Origin: a virus
Taxonomy: Duplodnaviria; Heunggongvirae; Uroviricota; Caudoviricetes
IMG/VR virus record: IMGVR_UViG_2711768052_000011
Direction: 5' to 3' (one strand)
Length of the DNA: 47,248 nt
Position 1 is the first letter of the stretch; each line of letters begins with the position of its first letter. A program made the translations under genes and the position numbers. Below the pieces are notes generated by a model. The model had not been told where the DNA came from and ran no database searches. It saw only the letters and a program-made list of their open reading frames with translations. Positions 4,440 to 45,612 of the stretch are shown piece by piece.

Positions 4440-7268
4440 TTATCCGATATCGCTTCGGGAAGTTGATAACAACTTTAATTCTGACTCAAGTTCATCAACT
4501 CTTTTTGTCAGTTTCTGAATATGGTGAATAAGCGGAACAACCAGACGATCATACATCACACCTTCAGCAACCATCCCATTATCAGACGCTATACCTGGAT
4601 CATCTTTGTCTGTAAGAGGACGCCAGTGAACATATTGCGGTGCTATCTCTCCGACTTCTTCTGCAATAAGGCCATAATGTCCCCAGTCCTTTCTGTCCCT
4701 TTCACAAGTCGAGCGATACCATACAGGACGAAGTTTCAACAGCTCATCCGCGTACTTGTCCTCTAAAGACTCGATATCCGTCTTGTATCGACGGGATGAA
4801 GTCGAACGAAAAACCATGTTGTAGCCAGCAATCGGACTTACGAACATGTTAGGACTATCGGTTGTTGTCTGAATGTCGAATATTTGCAAACAATAACAAG
4901 TTAACGTCTGGAAGTTTGCATCTAACGAGCCAGCTTCAAGTCTTGACGATGTGAGAAAATTCCTGTTTAAATTGTTAATCTCCGATATGCTGTAAGTTCC
5001 TATCTCAAGTGGTGTCGGCAGGTTTTTAGTATTGTACTGCCTGCGCCAGCCTGGCGAATAACCATCCCCATTGTAAACGTAAATAAATTCGGCGTTTACT
5101 TTTGCACCGGAAACGCTGGTAGTCGTTGCGGTGGTGATCCTGATTGTGTAGTTAGTCATGCCAAAGCTGGTTATTTCAATCAGTGCGCCAGCAAGCGGAA
5201 TAGTGCCGCATTTTGTTTCGCTATCCGGTATTGAGGCGTTATTAGCATAAGCCCACGAACAGCGAGCAATCCATGTACGCTGATTGAATGCGCCGTTATT
5301 TTGCAGCAGTGTAATAAATGACGATGTGGATAACGATTGTCCTGAATCGCCAGTATTCAGCCATGCCTGAGACGAAGCAGCAGCGCCGATGTTACCAGGC
5401 GTTAGAGTTATATCTTTCGTGCCGTCAAAAGCCACATTGTTAATGCTTCTCGCTGTCTGCAATTTGGTGGCGGTTGCCGCGTTCCCCTTCAGTGCCCCGG
5501 TGATCCCGCCAGTAACAGACAACGGACCTGAAATAGTCCCTCCAGTTGTTGGCAGTGCTCCAATATCTGATGGTGTAGGTTTCTGATGTGAGCTAAACAT
5601 CGTATAAACAACACCATCGGTAACGCCGGAAGGCTTACTCGCTGAATATGCTGGCGAGGTATAAACAGAAACTGACGCATTTGCAGTGCAATCCCAATGG
5701 ATATTTACACTCGTCGCATAATTGCCAATCTCAACGTAAATATCATATGTATCGCCGGATGTGTTGATCCAGGCGAAATTTGTTAATCCTGCGCCTGTTC
5801 TTTTCCACAAAGCTCCAGTAATCCCTTTGGGATTTCCATTGCCTGCTCGCAAAACCAGTTCTGAAATGCCTGCCTGCTGTGGGGAGCCGACGTTGTAACC
5901 AGCGCCACCAATCAATGTGATGTAAACGATGGAACTCGCTTGTGGCATGGTAACCGTAGCCAGTTTGAACCACCCTGCCCCGCCAGAGAAAGACATCGTT
6001 ACTGAATTGAAAGTGCCAATATCTTTCGGCGTTAATGTTATATCCGCTGTCAGTGCTTTCCCGTTAACTTTTCGGTTAGATGGTACCCTGCCATTCGCAT
6101 TGTCATTCGCTGCTTTAACTGCCTTCGGTGTCGCGGCAAGCGTTTCAGATGTACTGTTGGTTGCACTACTGAGCTGAACGATCCCCTTTTTCGTCGTGCT
6201 CGCATCCTCAAGCCCCACGGCGGATGCAATATCCTCCGCCCGTTTTGCTGCTGTCTCGGCGCGCGTTGCTGCAGATTCCGCCTTACTTTTGCTCTGAGCT
6301 GCCGCTGTCGCACTGCCAGCAGCCTCTGTCGCCTTCGTGGATGCCGTCGTGGCACTTCCCTTCGCTGCGGATGCTTGTCTGGTCGCCTCATCTTTTGAAG
6401 CAGACGCAGATGATGCCGATGACGCCGCCGAACTGGCGGACGATGCGGCTGCCGTTTTTGAGGATTCTGCACGGGTTTCCGACGCTTTCGCATTCGTCTC
6501 AGATGTCTTCGCTGCGGAAGCAGACCTCGTTGCTGCGCTGGCCTGTTCAGTGGCTTCGCCAGCCTTCGTTGTGGCTGTTGAAGCGGACGAGGCGGCGCTT
6601 TCTGCCGATTTTCCGGCGGCGGTGGCACTGGCTGAGGCCTGCCCGGCACTTGTTGACGCGGCACCGGCACTGGTGGCAGCCGCGCTTTTTGAAGACTCTG
6701 CAGCGGCAGCACTTTTTGATGCTTCAGTGGCCTTTGTTGATGCCGTTCCTGCGCTGGAAGATGCTGACTGAGCCGACGACGCGGCCTGTCCGGCTGACGT
6801 GCTGGCTGCGCGTGCTGAGCCTGCAGCATCGGTTGCATGAGTTGCCGCCTCACGGGCTGATGTGCCGGCATCGCTGGCTGACTTCTTCGCGGCTGCCGTG
6901 TTCTGTGCCACTGCGGACGCGTTACGCGCCACCTCTTCCACCATCAGTTCAAAACGGCGCAGTGCCTCCGGACGGGCATCATCCTCCGTCATGGCACCAA
7001 GAAAATCATTCAGCGTACCGGGTCGGGAATCTTCATACACGGTAATGGTCCCGGCATGTGATGGCGGGAATCCCTCCACCAACAGAATAACGCTGTACTG
7101 ACCATACTCAACGTCCATACTGTAACGCCCGGCTTCATCCGGATTTTCTGAGGCCACCGTGTTCACCACCACCGTGGTGCTGTTACGTTTTGCTTTCAGC
7201 TGGATTGTGCAGTTCTGTATCGGTTTACCTGCACCGTCTTTCAGTACACCTGAAATCTTTACTGCCAT
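4440..7268 (-). CDS. stf: tail fibre protein with lambda Stf-like N-terminus and C-terminal intramolecular-chaperone (peptidase S74-like) domain
   Basis: Start at MAVKISGVLKDGAGKP with GGGGTGA RBS; N-terminal approx. 110 aa and Ala/Ser/Thr-rich shaft match lambda Stf by recall; C-terminus has SSRRYKTDIE ... GLIAEEVGEIAPQYV typical of self-cleaving chaperone domain. Confidence 0.8.
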   Translation of the reverse strand: MAVKISGVLKDGAGKPIQNCTIQLKAKRNSTTVVVNTVASENPDEAGRYSMDVEYGQYSVILLVEGFPPSHAGTITVYEDSRPGTLNDFLGAMTEDDARPEALRRFELMVEEVARNASAVAQNTAAAKKSASDAGTSAREAATHATDAAGSARAASTSAGQAASSAQSASSSAGTASTKATEASKSAAAAESSKSAAATSAGAASTSAGQASASATAAGKSAESAASSASTATTKAGEATEQASAATRSASAAKTSETNAKASETRAESSKTAAASSASSAASSASSASASKDEATRQASAAKGSATTASTKATEAAGSATAAAQSKSKAESAATRAETAAKRAEDIASAVGLEDASTTKKGIVQLSSATNSTSETLAATPKAVKAANDNANGRVPSNRKVNGKALTADITLTPKDIGTFNSVTMSFSGGAGWFKLATVTMPQASSIVYITLIGGAGYNVGSPQQAGISELVLRAGNGNPKGITGALWKRTGAGLTNFAWINTSGDTYDIYVEIGNYATSVNIHWDCTANASVSVYTSPAYSASKPSGVTDGVVYTMFSSHQKPTPSDIGALPTTGGTISGPLSVTGGITGALKGNAATATKLQTARSINNVAFDGTKDITLTPGNIGAAASSQAWLNTGDSGQSLSTSSFITLLQNNGAFNQRTWIARCSWAYANNASIPDSETKCGTIPLAGALIEITSFGMTNYTIRITTATTTSVSGAKVNAEFIYVYNGDGYSPGWRRQYNTKNLPTPLEIGTYSISEINNLNRNFLTSSRLEAGSLDANFQTLTCYCLQIFDIQTTTDSPNMFVSPIAGYNMVFRSTSSRRYKTDIESLEDKYADELLKLRPVWYRSTCERDRKDWGHYGLIAEEVGEIAPQYVHWRPLTDKDDPGIASDNGMVAEGVMYDRLVVPLIHHIQKLTKRVDELESELKLLSTSRSDIG

Positions 7269-29391: not shown

Positions 29392-29544
29392 TTATTCAGA
29401 TTTACGCAGTAAAGGCCGGAGCACGACCAGCGCCATCGCCACCAGCACACCATCTGCCAGCACCGACATCAGCCGTCCGGTGAAATCCACCACCACTACC
29501 AGAAACAGCAGGATGGCAGCCAGCACAAGGCGCGCACTTTTCAC
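29392..29544 (-). CDS. small hydrophobic membrane protein (approx. 50 aa), translationally coupled
   Basis: GTG start overlaps stop of upstream gene (GTGA); product VKSARLVLAAILLFLVVVVDFTGRLMSVLADGVLVAMALVVLRPLLRKSE; not in ORF track (below 60 aa). Confidence 0.35.
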   Translation of the reverse strand: MKSARLVLAAILLFLVVVVDFTGRLMSVLADGVLVAMALVVLRPLLRKSE

Positions 29545-29966
29545 AGGTACTGCTCCAGCGGCAACTGCAACGCCTGTGCAATTTTCTTGAGCTGCACTTC
29601 TTCATCAGGACCGATGCCGTCCTGGTCAGCAATATCCAGACACAGACACAGCACGTTAACTGCATCATCAGTACCGGCAACATCAGCCAGCTGACGAAGG
29701 GCTTCGGCATTGGCAGAACGCGGTGACGCTTCATAACGGGCGCGGATATTTGCACTCATTTGTGCAATCTCACCCGAGAACGGCGCAAAGGCAGGAAGTG
29801 CTGCAATGGTTTTCTCCAGCACAGCGATTTCTTTCGCATCACAGGTGCCGTCGGCGAATGCTATGGAATACGCACCCCAGACGGTCGCCTCCACTGCATC
29901 GCGGTTCTCCATCTTCTTCACTTCGGTAATGGCCTTGCGGGTTTTCTTTTTGAAAATACCAAACAT
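29541..29966 (-). CDS. hypothetical protein, TerB-like features, first gene of lysis cluster
   Basis: 141 aa soluble acidic protein with ADG and acidic patches reminiscent of TerB-like fold; AAGGAAAAG RBS. Confidence 0.45.
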   Translation of the reverse strand: MFGIFKKKTRKAITEVKKMENRDAVEATVWGAYSIAFADGTCDAKEIAVLEKTIAALPAFAPFSGEIAQMSANIRARYEASPRSANAEALRQLADVAGTDDAVNVLCLCLDIADQDGIGPDEEVQLKKIAQALQLPLEQYL

Positions 29967-30631: not shown

Positions 30632-30680
<49 letters not shown>

Positions 30681-30833
30681 TGCTCTATCCGGATGAGCTA
30701 GTGACGGTTTTATTGCCACATCCGTAACAACAGTCGACAGGAATAATATACATTCAGAATCAGCCGCCTTAGCTAATTGTGCAACCATCTGCTCTTTGCA
30801 AGTGCACTTAACGTCCTGCGCCACTTTTCAGGC

Positions 30834-30862
30834 ATAAAAAAACCCGCTCAGTGGCGGGATCT
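30834..30862 (-). terminator. intrinsic terminator (candidate tR')
   Basis: Minus strand CCCGC-(6 nt)-GCGGG followed by T8. Confidence 0.55.
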
Positions 30863-30989
30863 TTTGATAAAAACGACAAAGGCACCATTAAGGTGCCTTT
30901 TACACAGGGGCAGCAGGCTTGTCATCACCTCATCGCTACTCCTGGCTTCCTGTTCGGAAGTCTCACAAGTCCCATCAGGGTACAGCGAC

Positions 30990-31018
30990 AGTATCAGCCA
31001 ACACACTATGTGTGTCAA
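30990..31018 (-). promoter_or_regulatory. candidate sigma70 promoter (possible late promoter pR')
   Basis: Minus strand TTGACA, 17-nt spacer containing palindrome ACACACTATGTGTGT, then GATACT. Confidence 0.35.
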
Positions 31019-31053
31019 TATAAATTCATATCGAATTCGATAATCGTTTTCGA

Positions 31054-31455
31054 TTATCGATACAGATAAGCCATCCCTATCCCGTGCAATACCGCCCGTT
31101 TAATATTCTCAAACTCATCTTCCGCAATCATAGGAACAATATAATTTCGTCCCTCCCAGGTTCTGGTTTTTATGCGATCCAGTCGGCTCAATGAAACCGT
31201 CATCAACATGTCACATTTTACCCAGCAAGTAATATGCTCATTACCAGGTATGGGGTTTTCTGATAACTCATGATGGCAATCTCTGCGAGGGAGCGGTTCA
31301 GTAGTGCTTATTGGTACCACTGTTACCAATTGATTGTTGTGCCTGTTTCTGGACACGACCACCACTGGCCTGACCTTGACTATTTCCGGAACAACCATTC
31401 CCCGAAAATCACACATTAAAACAGAACGAACAGACGGCTGATACTTTAATACCAT
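31054..31455 (-). CDS. MazF/PemK-family toxin-like protein (orphan, no adjacent antitoxin)
   Basis: Start MVLKYQPSVRSVLMCDFRGMVVPEIVKVRPVVVVSRN parallels MazF N-terminus (MVSRYVPDMGDLIWVDF...RPAVVLS) by recall; ORF track extends to 31533. Confidence 0.5.
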   Translation of the reverse strand: MVLKYQPSVRSVLMCDFRGMVVPEIVKVRPVVVVSRNRHNNQLVTVVPISTTEPLPRRDCHHELSENPIPGNEHITCWVKCDMLMTVSLSRLDRIKTRTWEGRNYIVPMIAEDEFENIKRAVLHGIGMAYLYR

Positions 31456-31555
31456 AAATCTCTTTGCCTGATAATGACGACTTGTGAACTCCACTACAAA
31501 CAAAATGATTCTGCTGAACAGGCAGTTTCGCACTATACATTATAACCTGTTAAGC

Positions 31556-31585
31556 CAACAAAAAAACCCGCTCGGCGGCGGGATT
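31556..31585 (-). terminator. intrinsic terminator downstream of Q-like gene
   Basis: Minus strand CCCGC-(6 nt)-GCGGG followed by T7; same core as terminator at 30834..30862. Confidence 0.5.
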
Positions 31586-31648
31586 TGCTTACTTTGCCAT
31601 CGAGTACAAAATCGGCAAAATATCAGATTTGCACGAAATATATGCCTT

Positions 31649-32344
31649 TTAATCTACTTTTGCAACACTTTGCTTTGAAAATGCCGTCTTTTGTTCTGAA
31701 CGTGTTCTCATCACAAACAATAAAGCCTCACTATCCAGCCGGTGGAAAATGTGTTTCATTGCAACCCAGTGACCAGTAAATGTTTTGGACCAGTTTTTTG
31801 TTGTTACTCCCGCCAGTAATGCCAGTTCCTGATATTCATAAGTTTCACGCCCAGCTAGCTCACTCTTCACATCCTGTGCCGCCAGCCAGATTAATTTTTT
31901 CAGGCGCTCCCGTGTTTTCTCCGCAATTTTTCTGGTACCAGATTGCGCGTTAAATTCATTCCACGCCCACTGTGTTATCGCAATCTGGTGTTCCCAGCAA
32001 ATGCTGCCGCTGTAACACCACAGCAACCAGGCTTTATAGTGTTCTTCAAGAGACAGAACCGCCCGTCGCCATGATGATGTCGAAAACTCAACCTGACTTA
32101 CCAGAGGAATTGACGTCCTCTTTGCCAGCGATTGTTTCCCCGGGATTGGTGGATTATCCCGCGTTATCATTTTTCCGGTCACTTCATCGCGGTACCGGAT
32201 TTTTTTACGCCTGTAACGCCCTGTATCAAACATGGCATTCTCCTGCCAGGCTTCAAGCTGACCTTTTGTTGCCTCACTCAAATCGGCGGTGGCAATAATG
32301 AGCTGCTCACGAACAAACTGTAAATACTGGTTATTCATGCGCAC
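31649..32344 (-). CDS. putative late antiterminator Q-like protein
   Basis: 231-aa ORF immediately downstream of rusA (10-nt overlap) and upstream of lysis region; sequence not confidently matched. Confidence 0.5.
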   Translation of the reverse strand: MRMNNQYLQFVREQLIIATADLSEATKGQLEAWQENAMFDTGRYRRKKIRYRDEVTGKMITRDNPPIPGKQSLAKRTSIPLVSQVEFSTSSWRRAVLSLEEHYKAWLLWCYSGSICWEHQIAITQWAWNEFNAQSGTRKIAEKTRERLKKLIWLAAQDVKSELAGRETYEYQELALLAGVTTKNWSKTFTGHWVAMKHIFHRLDSEALLFVMRTRSEQKTAFSKQSVAKVD

Positions 32345-34199: not shown

Positions 34200-34355
34200 T
34201 TACTCCTCAGGTTCGTAAGCTGTGAAGACAGCGACCTCCGTCTGGCCGGTTCGGATTCGTACCTCGCAGAGGTCTTTCCTCGTTACCAGTGCCGTCACTA
34301 TGACGGTTAAACAGATGACGATCAGGGCGATTAACATCGCCTTTTGCTGCTTCAT
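34200..34355 (-). CDS. hokD: Hok/Gef-family membrane toxin
   Basis: 51-aa product MKQQKAMLIALIVICLTVIVTALVTRKDLCEVRIRTGQTEVAVFTAYEPEE matches E. coli HokD (RelF) by recall; AAGGAG RBS. Confidence 0.85.
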   Translation of the reverse strand: MKQQKAMLIALIVICLTVIVTALVTRKDLCEVRIRTGQTEVAVFTAYEPEE

Positions 34356-34566
34356 AGCCTGCTTCTCCTTGCCTTTCGGCACGTAAGAGGCTAACCTAGA
34401 TTTGCCGTTCATAGATTGAGCCTCAGATTAATGTTAAGCGTCTTGCAGGACGCGTAATGTTAACTGGGGCTTTTCTCTATCTGCCTTTGGTGTTCATGCC
34501 TGAGACAGATAGCCTCAAGCACCCGCAGCCATTCTACTTAACTCCCGTTACCTCGCCAATATAAAA

Positions 34567-40322: not shown

Positions 40323-40587
40323 GAATCAAGCTCCTAGAAAGTGGTTGTGTTAACATTTTGGTATCTTCCAGCTCGGGCCAAATATTCATCCAATCAAAAG
40401 GCCTTAGTTGCTGACGTGTAACTTCACCATTACTGGCTCGCTCAATAAGGACACATAACGATGCCCCTAACACTTGACCTTTACTCAATGCCTTTCTTAG
40501 ATAACCGATGCTGGTACCACACTCGCATGCAAACATACGCTGTTCATCTGACGAAAGAGAATTGAGAAATATTCTTAATTCTTCCAT
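40306..40587 (-). CDS. ydaS: YdaS-like Cro/HTH-type small regulator
   Basis: 93 aa, divergent from repressor gene, HTH-like segment CGTSIGYLRKALSKGQV. Confidence 0.7.
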   Translation of the reverse strand: MEELRIFLNSLSSDEQRMFACECGTSIGYLRKALSKGQVLGASLCVLIERASNGEVTRQQLRPFDWMNIWPELEDTKMLTQPLSRSLIHENQA

Positions 40588-40594
40588 AGCTACT

Positions 40595-40660
40595 CCTTAG
40601 TAAACACAGCAAAGAATACCCACAGGTAAACAAAAGTCAATACCCGCAGGTTGTTTACCT
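40595..40660. promoter_or_regulatory. operator-like repeats in divergent immunity promoter region
   Basis: Direct repeats AATACCCACAGGT / AATACCCGCAGGT approx. 25 bp apart and inverted repeat AGGTAAACAA ... TTGTTTACCT between ydaS and repressor starts. Confidence 0.4.
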
Positions 40661-40687
40661 TGCAGTAATCGCATCTATTATTTACCT

Positions 40688-41107
40688 ATGGACAAATATG
40701 AATTTAGACGACAGCAACTCATCAAAATTCGTGATGAGAAATGCGATGGTAAAGCGGTTAACGTGGCCAGAAAGATCGGGCGCGAGCCTTCTTATGTATC
40801 AAGAATGTTGTACCCAGAGGGGAAAAAGGGAAAAAAACGGATCGCTGATGATATGGTGGAGATTATCGAAGAGTCCTTTGGGTTACCCCGGGGATGGATG
40901 GATGGTATCGTTTCATCATCAACGAACACAGCCTCCAGTTATGAAACAAGGGTTCTAACGCCACGACAACGTATTTTTTTAGATCTCTTAGACGAACTGC
41001 CAGAAAGTGAAGCGGATAACTTATTAAAAACTCTTGAAGAGAAAAAACAGTATTACAATATGATCTACGAAGAAATCCGTAAAAAGAAAGCACAAAACGC
41101 ATCATAG
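40688..41107 (+). CDS. putative prophage repressor (HTH, no LexA-like S24 domain)
   Basis: 139 aa divergent from cro-like gene; HTH-like VNVARKIGREPSYVSRML. Confidence 0.6.
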   Translation: MDKYEFRRQQLIKIRDEKCDGKAVNVARKIGREPSYVSRMLYPEGKKGKKRIADDMVEIIEESFGLPRGWMDGIVSSSTNTASSYETRVLTPRQRIFLDLLDELPESEADNLLKTLEEKKQYYNMIYEEIRKKKAQNAS

Positions 41108-42444: not shown

Positions 42445-42502
42445 TTTCTGGTGACGTTTGGCGGTATCAGTTTTACTCCGTGACTGCTCTGCCGCCCTTT
42501 TT
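42445..42502 (+). ncRNA. dicF: DicF small RNA (cell-division inhibitor sRNA) with intrinsic terminator
   Basis: TTTCTGGTGACGTTTGGCGGTATCAGTTTTACTCCGTGACTGCTCTGCCGCCCTTTTT matches K-12 DicF by recall; GGCGG/CCGCC stem plus T5. Confidence 0.75.
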
Positions 42503-43140: not shown

Positions 43141-45612
43141 ATGAGTAAAGTCTTTATTTGCGCCGCCATTCCGGACGAACAGGCAATAAAGGAAGAAGGT
43201 GCAGTTGCTGTAGCCACTGCCATCGAAGCCGGTGACGAACGCCGCGCCCGTGCCAAATTTACCTGGCAATTCCTGGAGCAATATCCGGCTGCTCAGGACT
43301 GTGCTTATAAATTTCTTGTCTGCGAGGATAAACCCGGTATACCCCGCCCTGCCCTCGATTCCTGGGATGCTGAATATATGCAGGAAAACCGCTGGGATGA
43401 GGAGTCTGCTTCCTTTGTCCCGGTTGAGACTGAATCAGATCCGATGAACGTCACTTTTGACAAGCTGGCCCCTGAAGTACAGAACGCTGTCATGGTTAAG
43501 TTCGACACATGTGAAAACATCACCGTTGATATGGTGATTAGCGCGCAGGAATTGTTGCAGGAAGACATTGCAACATTCGACGGACATATCGTTGAAGCGT
43601 TGATGAAAATGCCAGAAGTTAACGCCATGTATCCGGAGCTTAAGCTGCATGCCATCGGGTGGGTTAAGCATAAATGTAAGCTTGGTGCCAAATGGCCCGA
43701 AATTCAGGCAGAGATGCGCATCTGGAAAAAACGTCGCGAAGGTGAACGCAAGGAAACCGGAAAATACACGTCTGTTGTTGATCTCGCCCGCGCCAGAGCC
43801 AATCAACAGAACACTGAAAATTCAACAGGAAAAATCAACCCGGTCATTGCTGCCACTCATCGCGAATACGAGCAGACATGGAAAACACTGGATGACGAAC
43901 TGGCCTACGCTCTCTGGCCTGGTGACATTGATGCCGGAAACATTGACGGCAGCATCCATCGCTGGGCAAAAAATGAAGTTATCGACAACGACCGCGAAGA
44001 CTGGAAACGTATCTCGGCATCAATGCGCAAACAGCCTGATGCCCTTCGCTACGACCGCCAGACTATTTTTGGCCTTGTCCGTGAACGTCCGATCGACATT
44101 CACAAAGACCCTGTGGCACTGAACAAATACATTACTGAATACCTGACTACAAAGGGCGTGTTTGAAGATGAAGGAAGAAATCAGGGCGCAACTGATACTC
44201 TCTCGTCGCCAGTACCAGAAACTGATGCAGTGGAAACGGCAATTCCGGACAACGAAAAAACCGAATGCAAAGTGGAAGTCGAACCATCTGTAGAGCGTGA
44301 GGGGCCGTTCTACTTCCTCTTCACCGACAAGGATGGCGAAAAATACGGTCGCGCAAACAAACTTTCTGGTCTGGATAAGGCACTGGCTGCCGGGGCTACT
44401 GAAATCACGAAAGAAGAATATTTCGCCCGCAAAAACGGTACATACTCAGGTTCACAACAAAATACTGGTGCATCTGACACGACCGCACAACCAAGGCCGG
44501 TAAAAGTTACCGCTGACGAAGTAAACAAAATTATGCAGGCAGCCAATATCAGCCAGCCTGACGCCGATGAACTGCTTGCAGTATCACGTGGTGAATTTGT
44601 TGCAGGTATTAGCGATCCGAATGATCCGAAATGGGTGAAGGGGATTGAAACCCGCGATTCTGTGAACCAGAACCAGCAAGAAACGGAACAGAACGACCAG
44701 AAAGCGGAACAAAACAGCCCAAATACGCAACAAAACGAGCCAGAAACGAAACAATCCGAACCAGTAGCGCAACAGGAACCGGAAAAGATCTGCACCGCCT
44801 GCGGTAAGAGCGGTGGCGGCAACTGCCCTGATTGTGGTGCGGTGATGGGCGACGCAACATACCAGGAAACATTCGATGACAAGAACCAGGTTGAAGTTCA
44901 GGAAGACGATTCGGAGAAAATGGAAGGCGCTGAACATCCACACAAGGAGAATGCTGGCAGCGCTCAGAACCACGCCAGCGATAGTGAAACTGGCGAGGCG
45001 ACAGATTCCTTAGTTAATATGAACGGTCATCACAAAATCACATCCACCAGCAGAGTATGGAATCACCTGTCGGTCGACCTTGAAACGATGGGAACAAATC
45101 CCGATGCACCAATCAACTCCATTGGCGGTAAATTTTTTGATCCCGAAACCGGAGAGATGGGGCCGGAGTTCAGCAAAACGATTGATGCAAAAACAGGTGG
45201 CGGCACTGTCGACATAAGCTCAATCGAATGGTGGCTGGTGCAGTCCAGCGAGGCCAGATCTGCAATTTTGGTAAATCAAATCCCATTAGATGATGCGCTG
45301 CTGCAATTCAGAGAATTCATCAGCGAGCATTCAGATGAAAAACTCGTGCAGGTATGGGGCAATGGCGCAACTTTCGACAACGTGATTTTACGCCGTTCAT
45401 ATGAACGGCTGGGGATCCCCTGCCCGTGGCGTTACCACAACGATCGCGACGTGCGCACAATCGTTGAGCTGGGAAAAACCATCGGTTTTGATGCCAGAAC
45501 AGCTATTCCGTTCGAAGGAGTACCACACAATGCACTGGATGACGCCCGCCACCAGGCGAAATACGTTTCAGCAATCTGGCAAAAACTGATCCCGAATCAG
45601 GCTGATTTTTAA
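43141..45612 (+). CDS. large exonuclease: YdfE-like N-terminal region, Gln/Glu-rich linker, CxxC zinc-ribbon, C-terminal DEDDh 3'-5' exonuclease domain
   Basis: 823 aa; exo motifs VDLETMG, WGNGATFDNVIL, HNALDDARHQAKY; CTACGKSGGGNCPDCG. Confidence 0.75.
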   Translation: MSKVFICAAIPDEQAIKEEGAVAVATAIEAGDERRARAKFTWQFLEQYPAAQDCAYKFLVCEDKPGIPRPALDSWDAEYMQENRWDEESASFVPVETESDPMNVTFDKLAPEVQNAVMVKFDTCENITVDMVISAQELLQEDIATFDGHIVEALMKMPEVNAMYPELKLHAIGWVKHKCKLGAKWPEIQAEMRIWKKRREGERKETGKYTSVVDLARARANQQNTENSTGKINPVIAATHREYEQTWKTLDDELAYALWPGDIDAGNIDGSIHRWAKNEVIDNDREDWKRISASMRKQPDALRYDRQTIFGLVRERPIDIHKDPVALNKYITEYLTTKGVFEDEGRNQGATDTLSSPVPETDAVETAIPDNEKTECKVEVEPSVEREGPFYFLFTDKDGEKYGRANKLSGLDKALAAGATEITKEEYFARKNGTYSGSQQNTGASDTTAQPRPVKVTADEVNKIMQAANISQPDADELLAVSRGEFVAGISDPNDPKWVKGIETRDSVNQNQQETEQNDQKAEQNSPNTQQNEPETKQSEPVAQQEPEKICTACGKSGGGNCPDCGAVMGDATYQETFDDKNQVEVQEDDSEKMEGAEHPHKENAGSAQNHASDSETGEATDSLVNMNGHHKITSTSRVWNHLSVDLETMGTNPDAPINSIGGKFFDPETGEMGPEFSKTIDAKTGGGTVDISSIEWWLVQSSEARSAILVNQIPLDDALLQFREFISEHSDEKLVQVWGNGATFDNVILRRSYERLGIPCPWRYHNDRDVRTIVELGKTIGFDARTAIPFEGVPHNALDDARHQAKYVSAIWQKLIPNQADF

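What the first reader, a model, noticed from the sequence alone, without database searches (positions are those of the whole stretch)
31054..31533. Orphan MazF/PemK-like toxin gene inserted between Q and the late leader
From internal Met MVLKYQP the product parallels the MazF/Kid N-terminus (DF ... E ... K-RP-VV-S, then VTVVPISTT) by recall. No small antitoxin ORF precedes or follows it. It sits between the Q-like gene (which has its own terminator) and the putative late promoter, where lambda has no gene. It could be a solitary toxin, an anti-defence or exclusion factor, or a toxin neutralised in trans.
Basis: partly seen in the sequence, partly recalled or inferred. Interest (0 to 1): 0.6.

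Follow-up and report, generated by a model that had tools for sequence, protein, structure and literature searches.

The report
MazF-like toxin with hidden RNA partner
The prophage gene really is a MazF-type RNA-cutting toxin with no protein antidote, but it is not alone: a conserved, apparently undescribed small structured RNA gene sits right behind it, here and in hundreds of bacteria and phages, and is most likely its RNA antidote.

Summary
The ORF is real. The true gene is 31455..31054 (minus strand), 133 aa. It is a PemK/MazF-family protein: Pfam E 7.6e-14, AlphaFold pLDDT 91, and best PDB folds all MazF. The MazF catalytic Arg29, Thr52 (here Ser50) and Glu24 are invariant in its family. 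No protein antitoxin is present.

(1) The gene does not lie before the late promoter. A phage-82-type pR' overlaps the end of Q, and "Q's terminator" is tR'. The gene is therefore the first gene of the Q-antiterminated late operon, in the interval where related phages carry tRNA genes.

(2) The gene is not orphan.

A covariance model finds this RNA directly downstream of 73 of 80 homologous genes across many phyla. A reduced copy lies directly upstream in 6 more. Covariation is strong: 23 of 26 pairs show compensatory changes. The RNA matches no Rfam 15 family, and I found no paper describing it. RNA-only derivatives exist; homologues without the RNA are nearly absent.

Best reading (inferred, about 0.55): a type III-like toxin–RNA-antitoxin module carried as a prophage moron.

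The parts
31649..32344 (-). Q antiterminator gene, phage-82 type
   Evidence: Pfam PF06323, E 6.6e-93. About 78% nt identity to phage 82 Q (H40). PGAP annotates 31649..32338.
31637..31665 (-). Late promoter pR' (82-type): -35 TTGCAA 31665-31660, -10 TATATT 31642-31637, inferred +1 at 31630
   Evidence: Found by the promoter scan. Conserved with Q in phages that lack the toxin gene (A2). The position fits the features described for 82 pR' in PMC5001585.
31606..31630 (-). Initial transcribed region with sigma70-dependent pause/Q-loading signals: AAA start, TG at +6/+7, -10-like TATTTT at +9..+14, GCC at +15..+17, U at +25
   Evidence: Read from the sequence. It matches the text description of 82 pR': extended -10-like element, GCC at +15-17, AT-rich stretch, pause at +25 with a terminal U. 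The segment is invariant in four phages.
   Evidence: Terminator scan. Conserved, with a changed loop, in PPompW and 606R7 phages, where tRNA genes follow it directly.
31539..31544 (-). Perfect TATAAT at the start of the inserted cassette; possible weak own promoter of the toxin gene (poor -35)
   Evidence: Sequence. Retained in toxin-deleted derivatives L100 and L124. Function not shown.
31054..31455 (-). MazF/PemK-fold endoribonuclease-like gene (133 aa), YifN-type subfamily. AAGAG Shine-Dalgarno at 31464-31460.
   Evidence: PF02452 E 7.6e-14. PHROG 15698 E 1.5e-47. AF2 pLDDT 91.1. Foldseek best hits are MazF structures, E ~1e-6, TM 0.75-0.82. Family-invariant R29, S50 and E24 align to MazF R29, T52 and E24.
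30990..31018 (-). sRNA promoter: TTGACA, 17 nt, GATACT
   Evidence: 10 of 12 matches to consensus. TTGAC is invariant between E. coli, Enterobacter and Xenorhabdus. A -10 hexamer lies at a fixed 7 nt from the RNA 5' end in 63 of 75 distinct loci.
30866..30983 (-). Conserved structured sRNA (~115 nt). P1 30980-30978/30973-30971. Conserved linker ACUUGUGAGAC 30970-30960. P2 30960-30956/30950-30946. P3 30944-30935/30914-30905. P3a 30930-30927/30918-30915, capped by the near-invariant loop GAUGACAA 30926-30919. Terminator 30900-30878. Tail CCUUUGUCGUUUUU 30882-30869.
   Evidence: CM hit 30982..30871, 84.9 bits, E 2e-17. MFE -44 kcal/mol, z -4.0, same helices. Covariation shown. No Rfam family matches. 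No tandem repeats.
30836..30860 (-). Second terminator. It is a 25-nt direct-repeat copy (92%) of the tR' terminator at 31560-31584. The two copies, 724 nt apart, bracket the toxin+RNA cassette.
30643..30700 (-). 5'-truncated tRNA remnant (tRNA-Gly in related phages): what is left of the tRNA array that normally follows tR'
   Evidence: Rfam tRNA hit covering model positions 8-63 of 71. ARAGORN finds no tRNA. The matching stretches are annotated tRNA-Gly in related phage records, and 606R7 carries tRNA-Met, -Thr and -Gly after Q.

Best explanation
The locus is a two-gene toxin-RNA module carried as a moron at the head of the late operon of a lambdoid (Qin-site, phage-82-Q-type) prophage.

Gene 1 (31455..31054) encodes a MazF-fold endoribonuclease of a compact 'YifN-type' subfamily that keeps the MazF catalytic residues. 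Gene 2 (30983..30866) is a ~115-nt structured sRNA. It has its own sigma70 promoter and intrinsic terminator, and it displays a near-invariant apical loop, GAUGACAA(GCC).

I propose that the sRNA is the antitoxin. It would bind the toxin directly and occupy its RNA-binding groove as a decoy or pseudo-substrate, in the manner of a type III system. It would be made in excess from its own strong promoter, and it is also carried in cis at the 3' end of every toxin transcript.

In the lysogen, pR' transcripts stop at tR'. The toxin gene is then reached only by whatever weak promoter the cassette has, while the sRNA is made constitutively. After induction, Q-modified polymerase reads through tR', the toxin gene and both downstream terminators into the lysis genes.

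The likely pay-off for the prophage is abortive-infection-type defence and/or addiction. Phages that carry the RNA alone may use it to neutralise such toxins.

Shown here: the fold, the conserved catalytic residues, the pR'/tR' placement, the RNA's existence, structure and promoter, and the tight protein-RNA linkage. Inferred: toxicity, RNA-protein binding, the decoy mechanism and the biological role.
For: Protein. Pfam PF02452. AF2 model pLDDT 91. Foldseek hits are all MazF. Family-invariant R29, S50 and E24 align with E. coli MazF R29, T52 and E24.

No protein partner. None is annotated in the whole prophage, and there is no conserved adjacent ORF in 80 loci.

RNA detection. An nhmmer profile from 3 sequences, and then a covariance model, hit directly downstream on the same strand in 73 of 80 genome loci. 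Every one of the 81 hits in 877 kb lies just after such a gene, apart from one extra copy in L012 after a HicB-like gene. Control phages without the gene give no hit. In 6 of the 7 remaining loci a reduced homologue with the same loop lies directly upstream, in a ToxI-terminator-ToxN-like order. A 37%-identical Vibrio element homologue has the RNA too.

RNA structure. In the MAFFT alignment 90.6% of cells are paired against 75.2% when shuffled, and 19 of 26 pairs show double changes. In the CM alignment the figures are 97.2% against 80.9%, and 23 of 26 pairs. In both, 0 of 500 shuffles reach the observed value and slid controls stay at or below 55.5%. One-nucleotide indels in hairpin loops exclude a coding function.

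Own promoter. A -10 box sits at a fixed 7 nt from the RNA 5' end in 63 of 75 loci.

Asymmetry expected of an antitoxin. RNA-first scans find the RNA without the toxin in about one third of cases: 14 of 41 viral loci and 35 of 105 metagenomic loci. These include precise toxin-ORF deletions (L100, L124) and a decayed toxin gene (L136). Toxin genes without the RNA are essentially absent.

Not antisense. The loop shows no complementarity to the toxin translation-initiation region beyond chance: 4.83 against 4.78 nt.

Placement. The Q/pR'/tR' module is shared with phages that lack the cassette and fits the published 82 pR' features. The cassette follows three unrelated Q families, and Mor in a Mu-like prophage.

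Precedent (own knowledge). Type III toxins such as ToxN and AbiQ have a Kid/MazF-like fold and are inhibited by bound RNA. Phage PhiTE escapes ToxIN with an RNA mimic of ToxI.
Against: No experiment here shows toxicity, RNA expression or RNA-protein binding.

The RNA is single-copy and structured, not a tandem array processed by the toxin as in all known type III systems. In most loci it follows rather than precedes the toxin gene.

One third of RNA copies have no MazF-like neighbour, and some sit right after other genes. These include a Gp49/HigB-like plus HigA-like pair, an orphan HicB-like gene, and a Pseudomonas 87-aa protein. The RNA may therefore have a function of its own.

PADLOC has no model for the protein, so a defence role is unsupported by databases.

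The toxin's own promoter is not identified with confidence. The pR' assignment rests on conservation and a text description of 82 pR', not on an aligned reference sequence.
Confidence: 0.55

Rival explanations
1. The protein and the RNA form a ribonucleoprotein whose job is not toxin and antidote. For example, the MazF-fold protein might process or be guided by the RNA, or the RNA might be a sensor or scaffold of a defence or RNA-maturation complex. The protein would not be growth-inhibitory on its own.
For: The pair is conserved in either gene order. One clade sits in a fixed chromosomal locus between rsgA and motB in many Pseudomonas species, which looks like a housekeeping location rather than a mobile one. 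The RNA also occurs on its own.
Against: The catalytic residues of a cutting enzyme are invariant. The gene is frequently deleted or decayed while the RNA stays, which is the signature of a costly toxin. The module is mobile, on prophages and plasmid-like contigs with ParA or integrase neighbours.
Confidence: 0.15
2. A truly solitary toxin kept silent only by transcription. It lies behind tR' and is made only when Q antiterminates, in a cell that will lyse anyway (host shut-off or exclusion factor). The downstream RNA would be an unrelated phage sRNA or a 3' stabiliser/terminator.
For: The gene is downstream of pR'/tR'. It follows three unrelated Q families. No good -35 precedes the TATAAT at 31544.
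Against: The same protein-RNA pair is found in chromosomal, non-phage contexts with no Q. The RNA has its own promoter everywhere. Linkage persists when the order is inverted. A mere terminator would not keep a near-invariant 8-nt loop and linker across phyla.
Confidence: 0.12
3. The RNA is a type I-like antitoxin or regulator that base-pairs with the toxin mRNA (or another mRNA) and blocks its translation or stability.
For: In Enterobacter the loop is complementary to 10 nt of the toxin 5' UTR, and in one Pseudomonas to 7 nt. In the window, I noted by eye a possible imperfect 9-bp pairing that includes two G-U pairs (from the sequence; not computed).
Against: Across 24 diverse loci the longest complementary run equals the background: 4.83 against 4.78 nt. 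The loop is near-invariant across phyla while the toxin 5' regions are not conserved.
Confidence: 0.08
4. One reading: an orphan type II toxin neutralised in trans by a host or other-prophage MazE/ChpBI/PemI-type antitoxin.
For: No protein antitoxin is found in the prophage. A precedent exists for a solitary MazF neutralised in trans (MazF-mx with MrpC; own knowledge).
Against: The protein is only about 15-22% identical to solved MazF proteins and scores 13.9 bits against a 120-bit cut-off on the MazF equivalog model. Homologues in taxa with very different antitoxin repertoires all keep the RNA instead.
Confidence: 0.03

Closest known systems
MazEF / PemIK (Kis-Kid) type II toxin-antitoxin systems
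   Same: The toxin has the MazF/Kid fold and belongs to Pfam PF02452. It conserves the equivalents of E. coli MazF Arg29, Thr52 and Glu24.
   Different: No MazE/PemI-type protein gene is adjacent or anywhere in the prophage. The protein is about 20 residues longer, with inserted loops. It belongs to a compact separate subfamily of 1280 representative clusters. Its conserved partner is an RNA.
Type III toxin-antitoxin systems (ToxIN, AbiQ/antiQ, CptIN, TenpIN)
   Same: A small endoribonuclease with a Kid/MazF-related fold is linked to a dedicated non-coding RNA gene (own knowledge for the ToxN fold). The module is mobile and occurs on prophages. In one clade the order is RNA, terminator, toxin, as in toxIN. 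RNA-only copies occur in phages, recalling the pseudo-ToxI of phage PhiTE.
   Different: The RNA is one structured ~115-nt unit with three hairpins and its own promoter and terminator. It is not a tandem array of 34-45-nt repeats cut by the toxin. In most loci it lies downstream of the toxin gene. The toxin is a bona fide PemK-family member by sequence. Binding and inhibition are untested.
Morons in the Q-to-lysis interval of lambdoid phages (stx genes, tRNA arrays, StxS leader sRNA)
   Same: The cassette sits immediately after pR'/tR' and before the holin genes, co-oriented with the late operon. Related phages have tRNA genes at exactly this point.
   Different: The cargo is a toxin-RNA pair bracketed by two copies of the tR' hairpin, not a virulence factor. 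The sRNA is not the pR' leader here, although in some phages (L107 type) it lies inside that leader.
Solitary MazF of Myxococcus xanthus (MazF-mx, neutralised by MrpC)
   Same: A MazF-family gene with no adjacent protein antitoxin.
   Different: Here there is a conserved cis-linked RNA gene, and no evidence for a trans-acting protein.

Membership tests
PemK/MazF toxin family (Pfam PF02452) | Sequence match above the curated threshold | tested here: met
   52.3 bits against a cut-off of 23.1, E 7.6e-14. All 113 homologues carry PF02452.
PemK/MazF toxin family (Pfam PF02452) | SH3-like barrel plus C-terminal helix (MazF/Kid/CcdB fold) | tested here: met
   AF2 pLDDT 91.1, pTM 0.85. The listed best 50 Foldseek PDB hits are all MazF-family toxins (MazF, MoxT, YdcE), with TM (target-normalised) 0.63-0.82.
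PemK/MazF toxin family (Pfam PF02452) | Catalytic residues (E. coli MazF Arg29, Thr52; Glu24) | tested here: met
   R29, S50 and E24 are invariant in 31 diverse homologues and align to MazF R29, T52 and E24 in the profile alignment to 5ck9.
PemK/MazF toxin family (Pfam PF02452) | Sequence-specific endoribonuclease activity and growth inhibition | not testable with these tools
   Needs expression and cleavage assays.
Type II toxin-antitoxin system (MazEF-like) | Adjacent co-transcribed protein antitoxin gene | tested here: not met
   No such ORF here. No conserved adjacent ORF in 80 loci.
Type III toxin-antitoxin system | Protein endoribonuclease toxin genetically linked to a dedicated non-coding RNA gene | tested here: met
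   RNA found next to 79 of 80 homologous genes (73 downstream, 6 upstream). The window copy is at 30982..30871. The RNA shows covariation and is non-coding.
Type III toxin-antitoxin system | Antitoxin is a tandem array of short repeats processed by the toxin | tested here: not met
   TRF finds no repeats in 30700-31700. The RNA is a single structured unit.
Type III toxin-antitoxin system | Order: promoter, RNA, terminator, toxin | tested here: not met
   In the window, and in 73 loci, the RNA is downstream with its own promoter. The canonical order is seen only in the rsgA-linked Pseudomonas clade and in Alysiella.
Type III toxin-antitoxin system | RNA binds and inhibits the toxin protein | not testable with these tools
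   No protein-RNA structure predictor or assay is available here.
Type I toxin-antitoxin system | Antisense complementarity of the RNA to the toxin mRNA | tested here: not met
   Longest Watson-Crick run between the loop and -90..+30 of the toxin gene is 4.83 nt, against 4.78 nt in controls, over 24 loci.
Phage 82-type Q / pR' / tR' late-control module | Promoter just after Q with an AAA start, an extended -10-like pause element, GCC at +15-17 and U at +25, followed by an intrinsic terminator | tested here: met
   Sequence at 31665..31560 compared with the description in PMC5001585. The module is conserved as a unit in phages with different downstream cargo. No reference 82 pR' sequence could be aligned.
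Rfam RNA families (release 15) | Match to any curated covariance model | tested here: not met
   No hit at gathering score. Only terminator-level noise at E up to 10, in the window and in 9 homologous loci.

The most novel reading that the evidence does not exclude
A previously unrecognised class of toxin-antitoxin module, present in more than a thousand protein clusters across Proteobacteria, Chloroflexi, Bacteroidota and CPR bacteria and on temperate phages. In it, a bona fide PemK/MazF-family RNase is neutralised by a single-copy, independently transcribed structured sRNA rather than by a MazE-type protein. The sRNA would present an invariant GAUGACAAG loop as a decoy for the active site. 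Phages that carry the RNA alone, some inside their constitutive pR' leader, would use it as an RNA anti-toxin against such systems. This would be an evolutionary bridge between type II MazEF and type III ToxIN-like systems.
Probability: 0.5. Interest if true: 0.85.

Novelty: new variant of a known kind. Interest (0 to 1): 0.8.

Why it matters
MazF is the textbook type II toxin and is always discussed with a protein antitoxin. A whole MazF subfamily with a structured-RNA partner would add a new antitoxin type. It would link type II and type III systems by descent. It would explain a class of 'orphan' PemK/MazF annotations in RefSeq. It would add a widespread sRNA family that Rfam lacks.

The system is small (about 520 nt for the gene and the RNA), so the idea is directly testable in E. 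coli. If the loop is a decoy for the RNase, it also reveals the enzyme's recognition sequence and gives a programmable RNA inhibitor.

For phage biology, it shows another cargo type at the Q/tR' moron site, and possible RNA-only counter-defence genes expressed from the constitutive late leader.

Tried and rejected
- **Protein antitoxin search.** I checked all ORFs of 30 aa or more around the gene, the PGAP annotation of the whole SE11 prophage, and neighbour-ORF clustering in 80 loci. Nothing was conserved. The first clustering was polluted by antisense ORFs of the gene itself and had to be redone.
- **C-terminal autoinhibitory tail (fused antitoxin).** Rejected. The C-terminal helix aligns with the normal MazF C-terminal helix. 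The extra length lies in internal loops.
- **Pseudoknot between the conserved linker CUUGUGAGAC and the loop ACAAGCC.** Rejected. Sequences with a different linker (L041, L067, L077) keep the loop unchanged, and A17 usually faces C92.
- **Pairing of the loop with the UUUGUC tail.** By eye there was one possible compensatory case (Haemophilus), but the other loop variants do not co-vary. No count was made, so this is left open.
- **Antisense pairing with the toxin translation-initiation region.** At background level. An RNAduplex shuffle test timed out and was replaced by a simpler count.
- **Known RNA family.** Rfam at gathering and at E up to 10 gave nothing.
- **Defence databases.** PADLOC gave no hit.
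- **GenBank phage records.** No blastn match to the RNA.
- **Literature.** Searches on YifN, orphan MazF, RNA antitoxin and PemK found nothing describing the pair. One preprint on mining ncRNA-protein co-evolution (10.64898/2026.09.22.753630) could not be opened.
- **Resemblance of the loop (GAU[G/A]ACAAG) to the universally conserved 16S rRNA stretch GUCGUAACAAGG.** I noted this from memory. A 7-nt match is expected by chance about once in rRNA-sized sequence, so it is only an idea.
- **A 'clade without RNA'.** The Pseudomonas rsgA-linked genes and Alysiella at first looked RNA-free. This was overturned when the unfiltered model search found a reduced RNA upstream of each gene.
Full report
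**1. What the window is.** The window is about 99.5% identical over the 2.4-kb query around the gene to a lambdoid prophage of E. coli SE11, inserted in ydfJ (the Qin site). All late genes run on the minus strand. The order on that strand is: RusA, Q (31649..32344, Pfam PF06323, the phage-82 type), the ORF in question, about 1.1 kb without annotated genes, a TerB-like gene, a DUF3927 gene, two holins, an endopeptidase and the terminase.

**2. The observation.** The ORF 31054..31533 exists (159 aa from GTG). Homologues and RefSeq start at the internal Met (31455; MVLKYQP...; 133 aa). It matches Pfam PemK_toxin at 52 bits against a cut-off of 23. It matches a PHROG of unknown function strongly, and 'MazF-like growth inhibitor' weakly. 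PADLOC gives nothing, and phmmer finds no solved structure.

An AlphaFold2 model built on 31 homologues is confident (pLDDT 91.1). Its best PDB matches are all MazF proteins from S. aureus, B. subtilis, M. tuberculosis and E. coli, with E about 1e-6 and TM up to 0.82.

In the family alignment, R29, S50 and E24 are invariant. A profile alignment to E. coli MazF puts them on R29, T52 and E24. By established knowledge these are the catalytic and essential residues. The 'MazF-like' part of the finding is therefore sound. RefSeq already names the gene 'type II toxin-antitoxin system PemK/MazF family toxin'.

**3. Where the gene sits.** The evidence says otherwise.

- A promoter-like site, TTGCAA-17-TATATT, overlaps the Q stop codon (31665..31637).
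- If transcription starts at the first A of AAA (31630), the transcript carries TG at +6/+7, a -10-like TATTTT at +9..+14, GCC at +15..+17, an AT-rich stretch and U at +25.
- This is the set of features that PMC5001585 describes for phage 82 pR' and its sigma70-dependent pause at +25.
- The hairpin and T7 at 31582..31560 then end a leader of about 70 nt, so this hairpin is tR'.
- The block from Q through this terminator is conserved at about 90% in PPompW and 606R7 phages. In those phages tRNA genes follow the terminator directly. Similarity to the window stops exactly after the T-run.

The MazF-like gene is therefore the first gene behind tR' in the Q-dependent late operon. This is the interval where related phages carry tRNA genes and, by general knowledge, Stx phages carry stx. 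I could not align a reference 82 pR' sequence, so this step is well supported but not proven.

**4. The family is 'solitary' only for proteins.** 113 homologues were found, many labelled by JGI 'YifN (PemK superfamily)'. An exhaustive profile search finds 1280 representative clusters, 162 of them below E 1e-30. This is a compact subfamily distinct from mainstream MazF. In 80 genome loci from Pseudomonas, Caulobacteraceae, Neisseriaceae, Burkholderiales, Geobacter, Anaerolineales, Cytophagales and a CPR bacterium, no adjacent small ORF is conserved.

**5. The hidden partner.** I aligned the DNA downstream of the gene from E. coli, Enterobacter (79% protein identity) and Xenorhabdus (71%). About 150 nt proved to be better conserved than expected for a spacer. 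It starts with TTGACA-17-GATACT and ends in a terminator.

- A three-sequence nhmmer profile found the element just after the stop codon in about 70 of the 80 loci.
- A covariance model built from 36 non-redundant copies gave 81 hits in 877 kb searched on both strands. Every hit lies directly downstream of a MazF-like gene on the same strand, apart from one extra copy in L012. There were no hits in the two control phages that lack the gene.
- The window copy is 30982..30871 (84.9 bits, E 2e-17).

The RNA has the following parts:

- a short hairpin P1 (CCC/GGG);
- a conserved linker, CUUGUGAGACU;
- a variable hairpin P2;
- an 8-bp stem P3 topped by a 3-4-bp P3a, which presents the near-invariant loop GAUGACAA(GCC);
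- GUGAA;
- an intrinsic terminator, and a tail CCUUUGUC-UUU.

Base-pair statistics are strong. In the sequence-only MAFFT alignment, 90.6% of cells pair against 75.2% after shuffling, and 19 of 26 pairs show changes on both sides. In the model-fitted alignment the figures are 97.2% against 80.9%, and 23 of 26 pairs. In both, 0 of 500 shuffles reach the observed value, and partners slid by 1-3 columns pair in at most 55.5% of cells. One-nucleotide indels in hairpin loops and stem-preserving double changes rule out a protein-coding reading. The E. coli RNA alone folds into the same helices (-44 kcal/mol, z -4.0).

A -10 hexamer lies at a fixed 7 nt from the RNA 5' end in 63 of 75 distinct loci. 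It often overlaps the toxin stop codon, and a TTG-type -35 is visible about 17 nt further upstream in many of them. The RNA is thus an independent transcription unit as well as the 3' end of toxin transcripts.

No Rfam 15 family matches it, in the window or in nine homologous loci. It is never annotated in the 37 of 5426 complete E. coli genomes that carry it.

**6. Linkage survives inversion of gene order.** Seven of the 80 loci lacked the downstream RNA. One is a 1-kb contig. The other six are five Pseudomonas loci, where the gene sits between rsgA and motB, and one Alysiella locus. With filters off, all six show a reduced homologue directly upstream of the gene. It has P1, P3 with loop GCGAAG-CAAGC or GCGAUAACAAGCC, and a terminator. 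This is the order RNA, terminator, toxin known from toxIN.

A 37%-identical homologue in a Vibrio tectivirus-like element also has the RNA downstream. The K-12 yifN pseudogene has no convincing copy.

**7. RNA-first searches.** I scanned collections for the two conserved RNA words, to ask what lies upstream of the RNA.

- In viral contigs, 27 of 41 copies follow a MazF-like ORF.
- In metagenomes, 70 of 105 copies with enough flank do so.

The exceptions are informative:

- E. coli-type cassettes in which the toxin ORF is precisely deleted but the leader and the RNA remain (L100, L124);
- a decayed toxin gene (L136);
- phages in which the RNA sits about 125 nt after a lambda-type Q, inside the late leader (L107 group);
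- stand-alone copies with their own promoter;
- copies immediately after other small modules, namely a Gp49/HigB-like plus HigA-like pair, an orphan HicB-like gene, and a Pseudomonas 87-aa protein.

The RNA often survives without the protein, whereas the protein almost never occurs without the RNA. That asymmetry is what one expects of an antitoxin and its toxin. It also leaves room for an independent RNA function.

**8. Mechanism.** An antisense (type I) mechanism is not supported. Complementarity between the invariant loop and the toxin translation-initiation region equals background (4.83 against 4.78 nt), and the 5' regions are not conserved.

Three things point to recognition by the co-conserved protein rather than by a variable mRNA: a loop and a linker that stay constant across phyla; a partner protein that keeps an RNase active site; and the known precedent that Kid/MazF-fold toxins (ToxN, AbiQ) are inhibited by bound RNA (own knowledge).

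I therefore favour a type III-like RNA antitoxin acting as a decoy or pseudo-substrate. Unlike all known type III antitoxins, it is not a tandem repeat array, and it usually lies downstream with its own promoter. Toxicity, binding and the biological role are inferred, not shown.

**9. The phage context.** The cassette (toxin plus RNA) is bracketed by two 92%-identical 25-nt copies of the tR' hairpin, 724 nt apart. It has displaced most of the tRNA array, leaving a 5'-truncated tRNA.

The same cassette follows three unrelated Q families: PF06323 here, PF03589 in Enterobacter and PF06530 in Xenorhabdus. It also follows Mor/gp27 in a Mu-like prophage, always ahead of the lysis genes. 27 of 41 viral RNA loci have a Q gene within 2.2 kb upstream.

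In a lysogen, pR' transcripts should stop at tR' while the sRNA promoter (10 of 12 matches to consensus) is active. After induction, Q-modified polymerase should read through the toxin gene, the RNA and both terminators. Either a defence/addiction role or a late host-shut-off role would fit this context.

**10. Novelty and verdict.** The protein annotation is already in RefSeq. The RNA partner, its structure, its distribution and the protein-RNA linkage are not in Rfam 15 or in any paper I could find. One preprint on ncRNA-protein co-evolution mining could not be read.

I rate the pair as a new variant of a known kind: a type III-like module built on a true PemK/MazF toxin. Confidence that the protein-RNA pairing is real is high. 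Confidence that the RNA is the antitoxin is moderate, about 0.55.

Noticed in passing
window 34200-34524 (minus strand): A hokD/sok type I toxin-antitoxin locus. Rfam matches sok at 110 bits, and PGAP annotates a Hok/Gef family protein. It lies in the same prophage, upstream of the DUF968/RusA/Q genes.
   Followed up: no
window 42446-42497 (+), 43561-43749 (+), 40336-40761 (-): DicF sRNA (Rfam 76.7 bits), dicB, ydfA/ydfB and a YdaT-family 'toxin' gene. This is a Qin/Rac-like immunity and cell-division-inhibition region.
   Followed up: no
window 30643-30700 (minus strand): A 5'-truncated tRNA. Rfam matches model positions 8-63 of 71, and ARAGORN calls nothing. Related phages have tRNA-Met, -Thr (or -Lys) and -Gly (or -Arg) here, so the cassette insertion apparently removed most of the array.
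   Followed up: partly
window 31560-31584 and 30836-30860: A 25-nt direct repeat (92% identical), 724 nt apart. It consists of two copies of the tR' hairpin and brackets the toxin+RNA cassette. It could be a footprint of how the cassette was inserted.
   Followed up: partly
window 31561-31633 (minus strand): The short pR' leader gives weak sub-threshold Rfam similarity to the Salmonella Gifsy prophage sRNAs IsrK and IsrJ (19-21 bits). The terminated late leader may itself be an sRNA, like StxS in Stx phages.
   Followed up: no
L012 8789-9349: In an Oxalobacteraceae genome, a second full-length copy of the RNA (89 bits) lies 18 nt after an orphan HicB-like antitoxin gene (PF15970). It is 3.8 kb from the MazF-like gene and its own RNA copy.
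   Followed up: partly
L151, L170, L194, L195, L210, L228 (metagenome contigs); truncated forms in L145, L165, L193, L209: The RNA lies 11-28 nt after a pair of genes that, from the sequences, look like a Gp49/HigB-like killer and a HigA-like antidote (not checked against Pfam). There is no MazF-like gene. In some contigs the antidote gene is truncated and runs into the RNA.
   Followed up: partly
L107, L110, L111, L126, L128, L131 (viral contigs): Phages in which the RNA lies about 125 nt after a gene that looks like a lambda-type Q (assigned from its sequence and CXXC motifs; not run against Pfam). The RNA is apparently inside the constitutive pR' leader and is followed by a second terminator. 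There is no toxin gene, so this may be an RNA-only counter-toxin.
   Followed up: partly
L076, L078, L082, L083, L086 (Pseudomonas), about 4890-5400: A chromosomal clade of the gene is fixed between rsgA (a 30S-maturation GTPase, with orn nearby) and motB, with the reduced RNA upstream. This stable, non-mobile location hints at a housekeeping or domesticated role.
   Followed up: partly
window 29392-29966 (minus strand): A TerB-family gene and a DUF3927 gene lie between the cassette and the holins. They are further late-operon morons of unknown role.
   Followed up: no
L082 2634-2754: A TwoAYGGAY RNA motif (Rfam RF01731, 58.7 bits) lies near orn/rsgA in Pseudomonas orientalis. It is unrelated to the finding.
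   Followed up: no
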